Source: Ruditapes philippinarum (lineage: Eukaryota). Taken from it: 64,000 nt of DNA. Made by a program: the position numbers. This document shows positions 48,101-51,100 of this stretch, one piece after another (the stretch's first letter is position 1; each line of letters starts with the position of its first letter). The stretch lies in contig NW_026862875.1 in NCBI RefSeq assembly GCF_026571515.1, positions 62,001-126,000 of the forward strand, in the 5' to 3' direction.

Positions 48101-51100
48101 ATCATCACTGAAACTGTTTGGCGCCCGATATATGAAGGTGTTTACGCGATGCTCTTTTTGCATCGAATAATTAGCGAATAACTAAATATATCAATATCAG
48201 ATGTCATCGACATGTATCATAATCAAAGATACATCAGCTACATTTTAATTACTTTGGATAAAGTCAAGAAAGCGCTTGCGTTTAAGTCTGTCACAAAACA
48301 CCTGCAATACTTCTATATATACGTTTATTCAACCAGAAAAAAAACTTATAGCATACTTTAAAAGGCTGTACGGATAACCGATTACATTGTAATAGAACAA
48401 TACAAGTAGTCCCTTTCCTTTCTCTAAACAATGGATCAAATATGACTTAATCAGTGAAATAAGATATATACATTAATGGCTTTTTAAATCTTCTGTTTTA
48501 CTGATTCAGAATGAAGTTTTTTCTCATCATTTTTAAACAGAAAATACGGACAAATAAGTAAAAAAATTAGGATTGTTATATGATATAAAATGAGCTGGCA
48601 TTGATATTGTTTTATTTAATCTTACTTTTATGTGTTCGTGTTATTTGCGTATGTATATGTATACGTGACCTTTGATGAGACATAGATCTTTTAAGGAATA
48701 CATGAGAATTTACTTGGACCAATCTGAAATTTGTTATTATATATGCATTTCAACACAAGCGGTTGTCAAAAAACAGCTCCACGCCATTACACCGTAGTCA
48801 GTTGACCTTTAATATTTAAAAGGAAGATGGCGTATGGCCCAGGAGCGGATGAGAAACTTGTTAAACAGTTTGCTAAAGCCTGCAAGCTGTCTGGGAGTGA
48901 TGATGAGACTCTGATGAATAAGAAGTGCAGTAGAAACATTCGAAAATTCTTCTGGGAGAAAATAACCGAGTTCGATGGACTAGACCTCCAAGCATGTGAA
49001 GAAGCAGTATTCAAAAAACTGTTGAACCCGAAAACAGGGTAAGTATTAATGTATCTGTGTCTGCAATTTGTAAATGTTTTGATCAACGTAACAAAAATAT
49101 CATACTATCCAGTAAGCATTAGGGTTCATGATAATAGAGCTTGACTTATATTGATTTGACTTATAGTTTACCAGAAAGTCCTACGTGTCCAAGTAAAATT
49201 GTTTAAGAAATAATATCGGTCTCAGTGGCTACCTAACACCGATTTGTTCGTAGGAATTGACCACAAAGGCCGTATGTTTTCCTTTGTATTAGACATTAAT
49301 TTCTCCATTTAAGTCATAACAATTTACATGATTCTACACTTGCAATTGGAAAGTAAGTTTTATGAATACTTTTCACAATACAATTAAGTCTTGAAATACA
49401 CGTACAAGGTAATGGAAATATATTCAATAAGTTTAACATGTTTTATTTCCAATATCAAGATGTTTAAAGCTAATAAATGAACACCAAATGAAACATTTTT
49501 ATCATGAGGCTCAAAGCAATATAAATAAAAGATTAAGTACAATGATTTAAGTTAATAAATGCGATATCAGACACACATTTACAAAATAGTTCAAATATTT
49601 AGAAGAATGGCATACCGATGTGGAGACTTTACAACTGCCGTTTGTGTGGCTTTTCATTTTTAAGAATTATAGTGGTAGATGGAGCACATGTAGAAGCGTA
49701 CCTTACAGAGATGGCGCATGAAATAACTAAACGTAAAAGAGAAGACCCGAAGATTATGCGCAATGATCCTAGAGTAACCATGACCAAAGACTTTCTAGAG
49801 AAGATTGTAAGAGAGACAAAAGTGTATGTCACAGGAAAAGTAAGAATATTTTTGATGATTTTGGTGGTTAAGGACTTTATTTTGAAGTGATTAAATTTTA
49901 ATTATATCAGAAGTGAAATGCGCAGAGGACGTTTGCGTTATAGTGAGTTGCGTTCGATTTTTATGAAATAAGAAGAAATGTCTAAACTATAGTTCATGTA
50001 ATTTGGTCAGACGTAGCAAGTTTTCACTAGTAATGATATTTTGTAAATGAATAAATTGCACACGTTTTTTTTAATATCAGTACTTTAGCATTCATCATAT
50101 ACAAGTTTTCGTTCTATTTCATGATTATTTACGTGAAAATGGGAATGGTACAGTTTCATTCGAAAGAATTCATTTGACCGGGTTCCGTTGTATTCTTAGC
50201 ATACAATTTGTTCCTTTGATTAACATGTATATGAAATTTAAACATTTAGAAACATTTAAGTTAGTATTTGTAGACATTGCCCACTATTTCAATCATTTAT
50301 GAAAAGAATCAAGCGTTTTTAAAACATGCTTTGCTTGATTCATCTTTTGGACTACTGAGCTGCAATATATTTTCCTGTAAATACTCGCGTGTTTAAATCC
50401 CATGGGCACCTGATCACTGAACTGCAGTTTAAACAGCGGAAATTATTTGGTGACTTTGAATATTTTAAAGTATGTTAGTGTGTTTATTCATGTTCATGAC
50501 GTCAATCTAATGAATAATATAGCAGTTACCACAATCTGATATAGGTAACTGATTAAGCTTGAGCTTTTGAATATAAATATCTCATCATAATATGCTTTAA
50601 AGTTCGTCAATCATAAACATACGGATGATGAAACAGTGTCCCAGAGTAGTACTTTAATTAGTAATCACCGAACATGTTAAATTATTTAATGAAGTATCGA
50701 CGGATGTTGAACTGAGTGAGACAATGTCATTTTTATGTTTCAGGTAGAATATGTGGACGCTAAAGATATTGATGAGCCGACACGTACTGCATACAATAAG
50801 AATTTCCAATTTGTTAAACCAGAATTCCCCAAGGGCATCAAACAGATTTTTGATATCAGAAAAAGGAAACCAATTGTTATTGCAAAAAGAGACTATGGTA
50901 ACTTGAGCTAGAAAAACATTTGGAATGACTGCAGTATTGTTTGAATAAAGTGTGTTACCTCGGAAGCGTAGTTTGAAAACATTGAACGGCTGGTCTTGTA
51001 ATAAAGCCGAATAATTCTGTGCATGTTTGTCTTTGTCGTCTGTGTTTTGGTGTTGCAGTACATGTATTGTTATAACACATTCCATCGAATTTGTGTTTTG

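What the first reader, a model, noticed from the sequence alone, without database searches (positions are those of the whole stretch)
48827..50911. TPPP paralogue D has swapped the conserved microtubule-binding tail for an unrelated exon
Seen: exons 1-2 are homologous to A/C. I could find no LTD..YTG.HKERF/GxGxGxxGR exon between 49840 and paralogue E. Instead a clean phase-0 exon (50744-50911) encodes a 55-aa tail ending in a basic stretch (IRKRKPIVIAKR), giving the same total length as A (184 aa). Known: the C-terminal segment is the most conserved part of p25-alpha, and tail-less 'truncated' TPPPs are described from holometabolous insects. Inference: a convergent or neofunctionalised chimeric TPPP.
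Basis: partly seen in the sequence, partly recalled or inferred. Interest (0 to 1): 0.72.

Follow-up and report, generated by a model that had tools for sequence, protein, structure and literature searches.

The report
TPPP gene copy lacking its conserved tail
One of five neighbouring copies of a microtubule-regulator gene (TPPP) has kept an intact front half but has no trace of the family's conserved tail, and probably ends in a short unrelated basic tail, though no RNA or cross-species evidence could be checked.

Summary
The window carries five tandem, same-strand p25-alpha/TPPP paralogues: A 31531-33159, B (decayed) 39747-41101, C 43745-45347, D 48827 onward, and E 55047-57816.

D has intact exons 1 and 2 (48827-49038 and 49665-49839). 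Both are homologous to A, C and E and share their intron phases. No relic of the conserved tail exon lies between D exon 2 and E. Protein and DNA profile searches find only four tail exons in the whole window.

The proposed exon 50744-50911 exists as described: CAG acceptor, phase 0, 55 codons and a TAG stop, giving 184 aa, the same as A.

- **ORF length is not evidence.** 6 of 241 downstream AG sites give at least 55 codons.
- **Codon usage is evidence.** It ranks first of 140 candidate AG-ORFs, only 4 of 243 control ORFs score as high, and only the proposed frame scores positive.
- **The tail matches nothing.** Pfam, PDB, ESM Atlas and the window itself give no match. Homology to the canonical tail is not detectable; a weak in-register signal is not robust.

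Transcripts and orthologues could not be checked. Verdict: probably a real, independently arisen tail-less TPPP with a plausible replacement tail. It is a new variant of a known kind, of moderate interest.

The parts
48827..49038 (+). Paralogue D exon 1: ATG start, 70 codons plus 2 nt, GTAAGT donor, phase 2
   Evidence: tblastn to A exon 1 gives E 4e-4. Alignment A2 shows 24-31% identity to A, C and E. Leave-one-gene-out codon score is +0.24 bits per codon.
49665..49839 (+). Paralogue D exon 2: 175 nt, the same length as in A and C, GTAAGA donor, phase 0
   Evidence: tblastn to A gives E 5e-7 and to C 5e-6. Alignment A3 shows 23-35% identity, with the AHEI.KRK block kept. Codon score is +0.19.
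50744..50911 (+). Putative terminal exon of D: 55 codons plus TAG, encoding a basic tail (pI 9.6) with no detectable relatives
   Evidence: CAG|G acceptor with 70% pyrimidine in the 20 nt before the acceptor AG. It ranks 1 of 140 AG-ORFs by codon log-odds, and only the proposed frame of six is positive. 4 of 243 control ORFs score as high. No match in Pfam, PDB or Atlas. Not verified by transcripts.
50944..51005 (+). Two AATAAA hexamers, 33 and 89 nt after the TAG, followed by a GT-rich stretch: possible polyadenylation signals
   Evidence: The window background is one AATAAA per 451 nt, so this is mild support only.
51088..51278 (+). Copy of a ~190-nt dispersed repeat just 3' of the putative exon. 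Other copies lie in intron 2 of A (32757-32919) and of E (57046-57234).
   Evidence: blastn gives 80-83% identity. nhmmer gives E 2e-53, plus two weak copies at 38277-38341 and 35747-35843.
31531..33159 (+). Paralogue A: complete long-type TPPP of 184 aa, with its tail exon at 32980-33159
   Evidence: The tail hits Pfam p25-alpha at E 2e-18 and human TPPP3 structure 2jrf at E 1.7e-17. Gene model.
39747..41101 (+). Paralogue B: decayed copy. No exon 1 was found, the tail exon has an in-frame stop, and the GKGKG motif is lost.
43745..45347 (+). Paralogue C: complete, with its tail exon at 45165-45347
   Evidence: The tail hits Pfam p25-alpha at E 3e-12.
55047..57816 (+). Paralogue E: complete, with its tail exon at 57631-57816
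   Evidence: The tail hits Pfam p25-alpha at E 5e-18.

Best explanation
D is a divergent but intact member of a five-copy tandem cluster of long-type TPPP (p25-alpha) genes. It has kept the two exons that encode the core and has lost the family's conserved last exon, the LTD..YTGxHKERF..GxGxGxxGR segment that binds tubulin in studied TPPPs. Its transcript most likely ends in the exon at 50744-50911, giving a 184-aa protein. The 55-aa tail is basic, probably disordered, and unrelated to p25-alpha as far as any search can see.

Functionally this makes D a core-only TPPP, analogous to the insect truncated TPPP (CG6709). It should lack canonical TPPP-type microtubule binding. Any residual binding would have to come from charge interactions of the new basic tail.

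Shown: intact exons 1 and 2, their paralogy to A, C and E, absence of the tail exon, and the ORF's coding-like codon usage. Inferred: splicing to 50744, expression, loss of microtubule binding, and any new function.
For: - **Core paralogy and shared gene structure.** tblastn gives E 4e-4 for exon 1 and 5e-7 for exon 2. Intron phases are the same (2, then 0), and exon 2 is 175 nt in A, C and D.
- **D is not drifting neutrally.** 129 codons stay open with canonical GT/AG sites despite only 23-35% identity to its paralogues. At the window's stop frequency (0.064) the chance of that is 2e-4. Copy B, by contrast, has lost exon 1 and carries a stop. The codon scores of D exons 1 and 2 are positive.
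- **No canonical tail.** There are only four tail exons in the window for five copies, and none in 49840-55046 by tblastn, nhmmer --max or hmmsearch --max.
- **The 50744 exon is the best candidate.** It ranks 1 of 140 AG-ORFs (8.9 bits against 3.8). 4 of 243 control ORFs reach its per-codon score. Only the proposed frame of six is positive, as in the eleven accepted exons. It has a CAG|G acceptor with a pyrimidine tract and two AATAAA hexamers within 89 nt of the stop.
- **The tail looks unrelated.** Pfam gives 0 families at E<=10, PDB 0 hits at E<=10, and the Atlas no usable hit. hhalign against the four canonical tails gives probability 0.13%.
- **The tubulin-binding role of the C-terminus is documented.** See the PMC8180608 Discussion.
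Against: - There are no transcript data and no orthologue, so the splice 49839^50744 is a prediction.
- ORF length is within chance (6 of 241 AG sites).
- A nearer acceptor with a long T-run opens a 73-codon frame at 50081, though its codon score is -0.40.
- The coding signal sits in the first half of the exon. The last ~25 codons score negative.
- The codon model was trained on only 11 exons of this same lysine-rich family, which favours a lysine-rich ORF.
- D's exons 1 and 2, taken alone, do not reach Pfam p25-alpha, and D has LxxxFxxA where the family motif is LxxxFxxF/Y.
- The AF2 model of the tail alone is uninformative (pLDDT 59.6).
Confidence: 0.45

Rival explanations
1. The exon at 50744-50911 is real, but it is the ancestral tail exon itself, diverged beyond recognition after release from the microtubule-binding constraint. 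It is not a swapped or recruited unrelated exon.
For: - It has the same intron phase (0), a similar exon length (55 codons against 59-61) and a similar intron-2 length (904 nt against 818 nt in A).
- An ungapped alignment at +2 codons gives 9 of 55 identities to A, several on family-conserved columns: the F of KERF, KG of GKGKG, and the V of GYV.
- Shuffles reach that score in 47 of 5000 trials against A and 100 of 5000 against C. For the four-tail profile it is 659 of 20000.
- DNA identity peaks at the same register in 3 of 4 paralogues.
Against: - The signal is not robust. Against B it is 1456 of 5000 and against E 3006 of 5000.
- The codon-shuffle DNA test gives 431 of 5000.
- Gapped global alignment gives 75 of 1000 against A and 983 of 1000 against E, while non-homologous control exons reach 107-145 of 1000.
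- hhalign probability is 0.13%, and Pfam p25-alpha gives no hit at E<=10.
- None of the core motifs (LTD, YTG.HK.R, GxGxG) survives.
Confidence: 0.15
2. D is functional but simply tail-less. Its message ends by read-through into intron 2, adding 16 codons to a stop at 49888-49890, or in some other short exon. The 50744 ORF is then a chance open frame.
For: - ORFs of this length are expected by chance. 6 of 241 AG sites give at least 55 codons, and there is a 73-codon frame behind a strong T-rich acceptor at 50081.
- An AATAAA or ATTAAA hexamer lies 160 nt after the read-through stop.
- The insect precedent, truncated TPPP, ends after the exon-2 equivalent (PMC8180608 Results).
- The second half of the ORF is not coding-like.
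Against: - The ORF's codon score is in the top 4 of 243 controls and first of 140 local candidates, and the frame specificity matches real exons.
- The read-through peptide is hydrophobic and looks like junk.
Confidence: 0.22
3. D is an untranscribed or recently dead partial duplicate: a pseudogene that copied only exons 1 and 2.
For: - The cluster already contains one decayed copy, B.
- D lacks the tail and deviates at the LxxxFxxF motif.
- No expression evidence is available.
Against: - 129 codons stay open with intact start and splice sites at 23-35% identity to the paralogues. The chance under neutral drift is about 2e-4.
- Both exons have positive codon scores.
Confidence: 0.1
4. D exon 2 splices across E's first two exons to E's tail exon at 57631. 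The phases (0 to 0) keep the frame, so D borrows a canonical tail.
For: The phases are compatible, and D has no tail exon of its own.
Against: It needs a 7.8-kb intron spanning E's start and two exons, and read-through past the AATAAA sites after 50911. No data support it.
Confidence: 0.05

Closest known systems
Truncated TPPP of holometabolous insects (Drosophila CG6709 type; Orosz 2012 and 2021)
   Same: A separate gene, not a splice variant, that keeps the p25-alpha core encoded by the first exons and lacks the last, tubulin-binding exon. It is very divergent from the full-length paralogue in the same genome: 22-27% identity in Drosophila (PMC8180608 Results), against 23-35% here.
   Different: The insect proteins are 106-128 aa and end after the core. 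D, under the proposed model, is 184 aa with an extra 55-aa tail. The insect clade is reported as Endopterygota-only and arose once in that lineage. D sits in a local tandem cluster, so it would be an independent origin (inference). Orthology was not tested because no insect sequences were available here.
Long-type TPPP (human TPPP3, PDB 2jrf; paralogues A, C and E of this window)
   Same: Three-coding-exon structure, with a phase-2 first intron and the last exon starting in phase 0. The core is homologous to A, C and E.
   Different: D lacks the conserved C-terminal 31-32 residues with the GxGxGxxGR motif. That feature defines the long type (passage in PMC3498115).
Short-type TPPP of protists
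   Same: A p25-alpha protein whose C-terminal end is incomplete (passage in PMC3498115).
   Different: Short-type proteins form a separate ancient paralogous group, mostly in unicellular eukaryotes. D derives from long-type neighbours by local duplication.

Membership tests
p25-alpha / TPPP-like superfamily (Pfam PF05517) | Match to the Pfam p25-alpha profile above its gathering score | tested here: inconclusive
   Tested exon by exon only; the joined protein was not searched. D exons 1, 2 and 3 give no p25-alpha hit at E<=10. However, A exon 2 and E exons 1 and 2 also give none, and A exon 1 gives only 15.7 bits against a cut-off of 22.6. Only the tail exons of A, C and E pass, at 67, 48 and 66 bits. 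Profiles of exons 1 and 2 also miss the TPPP entries in the PDB.
p25-alpha / TPPP-like superfamily (Pfam PF05517) | Homology of the core to proven family members | tested here: met
   D exons 1 and 2 match the exons of A and C (E 4e-4, 5e-7, 5e-6), colinear and on the same strand, within a tandem cluster whose other members carry Pfam-positive tails.
p25-alpha / TPPP-like superfamily (Pfam PF05517) | LxxxFxxF(Y) motif at the start of the domain (PMC8180608 Results) | tested here: not met
   A, C and E have L...F..F. D has L...F..A, within LVKQFAKA. Two of the three motif residues are kept.
p25-alpha / TPPP-like superfamily (Pfam PF05517) | Three coding exons with a phase-2 first intron and the last exon starting at a conserved position | tested here: met
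   Intron 1 is phase 2 and intron 2 is phase 0, at the same alignment positions as in A and C. Exon 2 is 175 nt in A, C and D.
Long-type TPPP | Conserved C-terminal 31-32 aa including GxGxGxxGR and the LTD..YTGxHKERF block | tested here: not met
   No such exon for D was found by regex, tblastn, nhmmer --max or hmmsearch --max. The proposed tail shows no similarity.
Truncated TPPP (CG6709 type) | p25-alpha core present, last exon missing, encoded by its own gene | tested here: met
   D has its own exons 1 and 2 with an ATG start and no canonical last exon.
Truncated TPPP (CG6709 type) | Protein of about 106-128 aa that ends with the core | not testable with these tools
   This depends on the real 3' end. 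The result is 184 aa if 50744-50911 is used and 145 aa if intron 2 is read through. It needs transcripts.
Truncated TPPP (CG6709 type) | Membership of the CG6709 clade, reported as Endopterygota only | not tested
   No insect sequences could be fetched because the protein databases were closed. The tandem position among local paralogues argues for an independent origin (inference).

The most novel reading that the evidence does not exclude
A tail-less TPPP arose a second time, independently of the insect CG6709 lineage and outside the insects. Instead of simply ending after the core, it recruited a new terminal exon from previously non-coding DNA downstream of exon 2. The new basic tail then replaces the family's sequence-specific tubulin-binding motif with a charge-based or entirely different interaction.
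Probability: 0.15. Interest if true: 0.6.

Novelty: new variant of a known kind. Interest (0 to 1): 0.35.

Why it matters
TPPPs are described as near single-copy in invertebrates, with a C-terminal ~50 aa that is ~80% conserved and carries the tubulin binding (passage in PMC12047068; PMC8180608 Discussion). The one known class without that segment is reported as restricted to holometabolous insects, and its function is unknown.

A second, independent tail-less copy sits beside three full-length paralogues and one dead one in the same 27-kb cluster. That offers a natural comparison set (D against E or A) for asking what the p25-alpha core does without its microtubule-binding tail. If the replacement exon is real, it would also be a small, datable case of terminal-exon turnover after tandem duplication.

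The claim rests on sequence analysis of one window, so its weight is limited until transcripts and orthologues are seen.

Tried and rejected
- **Frameshifted remnant of the canonical tail inside the new exon.** DNA identity to the four tails over offsets -12 to +24 peaks at an in-frame offset. It is not significant (431 of 5000 codon shuffles reach it), and the other two forward frames show no motif.
- **Decayed tail relic anywhere in 49840-55046, on either strand.** None found.
- **The exon region as part of a repeat or transposon.** blastn of 49840-55100 against the window finds no second copy of 50600-51087. The only repeat is at 51088-51278.
- **The 149-aa antisense ORF (50654-51103) as the real gene.** No Pfam family. 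All three antisense frames across the exon 50744-50908 score negative in codon usage.
- **The ~190-nt repeat as a landmark of ancestral intron 2.** This would place the old tail exon 3' of 51278. I rejected it as evidence because weaker copies also lie outside TPPP introns. It is also more similar between loci (80%) than the exons are, so it behaves as a dispersed repeat.
- **Splicing of D exon 2 onto E exon 1.** The frame of E exon 1 is closed two codons upstream of its ATG by TAA. There is therefore no AG acceptor at that point (read).
- **AF2 fold of the tail alone.** Mean pLDDT 59.6, pTM 0.14, no fold. I did not run fold search on it because a low-confidence model gives meaningless matches.
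- **ESM Atlas with the tail and with D exon 1.** No usable hit.
- **Literature.** Five searches were run: (TPPP, bivalve, tandem; p25alpha plus Mollusca, 4 papers, listing only; TPPP plus Crassostrea, 3 papers; TPPP plus Mytilus, 6 papers). None describes a molluscan TPPP cluster or a TPPP with a replaced tail.

Full report
**What the window holds.** The window is AT-rich (GC about 0.32) and has one N run at 34309-34456, which I left alone. On the + strand between 31.5 and 57.8 kb lie five tandem p25-alpha/TPPP paralogues:
- A: 31531-31730, 31987-32161, 32980-33159; 184 aa.
- B: exon-2-like 39747-39881 and tail exon 40919-41101, which carries an in-frame stop and has lost the GKGKG motif. No exon 1 was found.
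- C: 43745-43983, 44694-44868, 45165-45347.
- D: 48827-49038 and 49665-49839, plus the proposed exon 50744-50911.
- E: exon 1 from 55047, exon 2 ending at 56391, tail exon 57631-57816.

The tail exons of A, C and E match Pfam p25-alpha positions 102-153 (E 2e-18, 3e-12 and 5e-18). A's tail matches human TPPP3 structure 2jrf (E 1.7e-17). Nothing suggested a human contig.

**Checking the observation.**
- D exon 1 starts with ATG and ends at a GTAAGT donor in phase 2.
- Exon 2 follows an AAG acceptor and ends at a GTAAGA donor in phase 0. It is 175 nt, exactly as in A and C.
- The proposed exon 3 follows TGTTTCAG, reads 55 codons in phase 0 and stops at TAG.
- The total is 184 codons, as in A.

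D exons 1 and 2 are homologous to the neighbours. tblastn gives E 4e-4 to A exon 1, 5e-7 to A exon 2 and 5e-6 to C exon 2. Alignments show 24-31% and 23-35% identity.

The conserved tail is absent. Reciprocal tblastn with the four tail exons finds only those four loci, and nothing at E<=1 between 49840 and 55098. A four-tail DNA profile (nhmmer --max) and a protein profile (hmmsearch --max on the six-frame translation) also find nothing there on either strand; the best hits have E>1.

**Is D a live gene?** D's 129 core codons are open, with start and splice signals intact, at a divergence where neutral sequence of this composition would stay open with probability about 2e-4 (stop frequency 0.064). 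Copy B shows what decay looks like in this cluster. In a leave-one-gene-out codon model, D exons 1 and 2 score +0.24 and +0.19 bits per codon. That is lower than A, C and E (0.27-0.66) but far above non-coding ORFs. I infer long-term purifying selection on the core, and therefore that D needs some 3' end.

**Is 50744-50911 that end?** ORF length is no argument. Of 241 AG dinucleotides between 49860 and 55040, 6 open a phase-0 frame of at least 55 codons. These include a 73-codon frame at 50081 behind a long T-run. Codon usage is an argument.
- The ORF scores +0.16 bits per codon. The 243 stop-free stretches of at least 50 codons elsewhere in the window average -0.32 (sd 0.21), and 4 of 243 reach it.
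- It is first of 140 AG-ORFs of at least 8 codons in the interval, at 8.9 bits against 3.8 for the next.
- The rival long ORFs score -0.12 to -0.40.
- Only the proposed frame of six is positive, which is the pattern of all eleven accepted exons.
- Two AATAAA hexamers lie 33 and 89 nt after the stop. The background is one per 451 nt.

Three cautions apply. The model is trained on eleven exons of the same lysine-rich family. The signal sits in the first half of the exon, and the last ~25 codons score negative. There is no transcript or orthologue evidence at all. I put the exon's reality near one half.

**Is the tail unrelated to the canonical one?** Standard tests see nothing:
- Pfam gives 0 families at E<=10.
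- PDB gives 0 hits at E<=10.
- The ESM Atlas gives no usable hit.
- There is no other copy in the window.
- hhalign against the four tails gives probability 0.13%.

One thing gave me pause. An ungapped alignment two codons in gives 9 of 55 identities to A, partly on family-conserved columns. Shuffles reach that score in 47 of 5000 trials (A), 100 of 5000 (C) and 659 of 20000 (profile). DNA identity peaks at the same register in 3 of 4 paralogues.

The signal fails elsewhere, however. It is 1456 of 5000 against B and 3006 of 5000 against E. The codon-shuffle DNA test gives 431 of 5000. Gapped global alignment gives 75 of 1000 against A and 983 of 1000 against E, while plainly non-homologous exons reach 107-145 of 1000.

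So homology is not detectable. Because phase, exon length (55 against 59-61 codons) and intron length (904 against 818 nt) are what a diverged original exon would show, I keep that as a rival at 0.15. 'Swapped' is therefore not established.

**Properties of the tail.** The pI is 9.6, with 12 K+R against 8 D+E and only 2 glycines against 9-12 in canonical tails. AF2 on the 55 residues alone gives pLDDT 59.6 and no fold. That is compatible with disorder but not informative.

**What it most likely is and does.** D is a core-only TPPP. In studied long-type TPPPs the residues needed for tubulin binding lie in the C-terminus, and the central part does not bind. Orosz concludes that the insect truncated TPPP very probably cannot bind microtubules (PMC8180608 Discussion). 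By the same reasoning, D should lack canonical binding (inference). A basic tail could give non-specific affinity for acidic tubulin tails, which is speculation.

The closest known kind is the insect truncated TPPP. It is a separate gene lacking the last exon, 106-128 aa long, reported as absent outside Endopterygota (PMC8180608: abstract, Results part 1 of 2 and Discussion read). D differs in its likely extra tail and in arising within a local tandem cluster.

**Membership.** D fails the long-type hallmark. It meets the 'core present, last exon missing, own gene' definition of a truncated TPPP. Its superfamily membership rests on paralogy and gene structure rather than on a Pfam hit, and it has LxxxFxxA where the family has LxxxFxxF/Y.

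**What stayed unchecked.**
The remaining contig collection holds only bacteria and archaea, so I did not scan it. Conservation of the tail in related species is therefore untested.
The orthologue lists of PMC8180608 (its Supplementary Figures 3 and 4) might bear on whether non-insect truncated forms have been seen.
- Five literature searches found no description of a molluscan TPPP cluster or of a TPPP with a replaced tail.

**Verdict.** The locus is a probable independent tail-less TPPP with a plausible but unverified replacement tail. It is a new variant of a known kind. I score interest at 0.35.

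Noticed in passing
window 31531-57816: Five tandem same-strand TPPP paralogues in about 27 kb. A 2025 review says invertebrates generally have one TPPP (passage). Taken exon by exon, their core exons are so diverged that they miss Pfam p25-alpha and the TPPP entries in the PDB.
   Followed up: partly
window 39747-41101: Paralogue B looks like a pseudogene. No exon 1 was found, there is an in-frame stop in the tail exon, and the GKGKG motif is replaced.
   Followed up: partly
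window 55930-56190 and 57380-57617; also 13450-13710, 58695-58940, 62880-63120: A ~260-nt element that matches its own reverse complement (76%), so it is MITE-like, with five copies in the window at 80-87% identity. Two copies sit in E's introns, ending 23 nt and 14 nt upstream of the exon-2 and exon-3 acceptors.
   Followed up: partly
window 32757-32919, 51088-51278, 57046-57234; weak copies at 35747-35843 and 38277-38341: A ~190-nt repeat, with all copies on the + strand and all inside the TPPP cluster. In A and E it lies in intron 2 upstream of the tail exon. In D it lies just after the putative tail exon. Whether it is a transposon or a converted intron segment is open.
   Followed up: partly
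window 32963-33397, 40953-41561, 50654-51103, 57449-57850 (all - strand): 4 of the 20 stop-free frames of at least 110 aa in the window are antisense to the terminal exons and 3' flanks of A, B, D and E. D's has no Pfam match. This is unexplained and may be a composition effect.
   Followed up: partly
window 46005-46736 (-), 14158-16656 (-), 23257-24105 (+): Transposon remnants. A DDE_3 (Tc1/mariner-type) transposase fragment lies between C and D. A DDE_Tnp_4 (Harbinger/PIF-type) transposase is split over two ORFs. A 283-aa ORF has no Pfam match.
   Followed up: partly
window 55281/56213: E's first intron appears shifted relative to A, C and D. The only in-frame model I found uses a GTCAAA donor and phase 1 instead of phase 2 (and hand reading). 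It is not verified.
   Followed up: no
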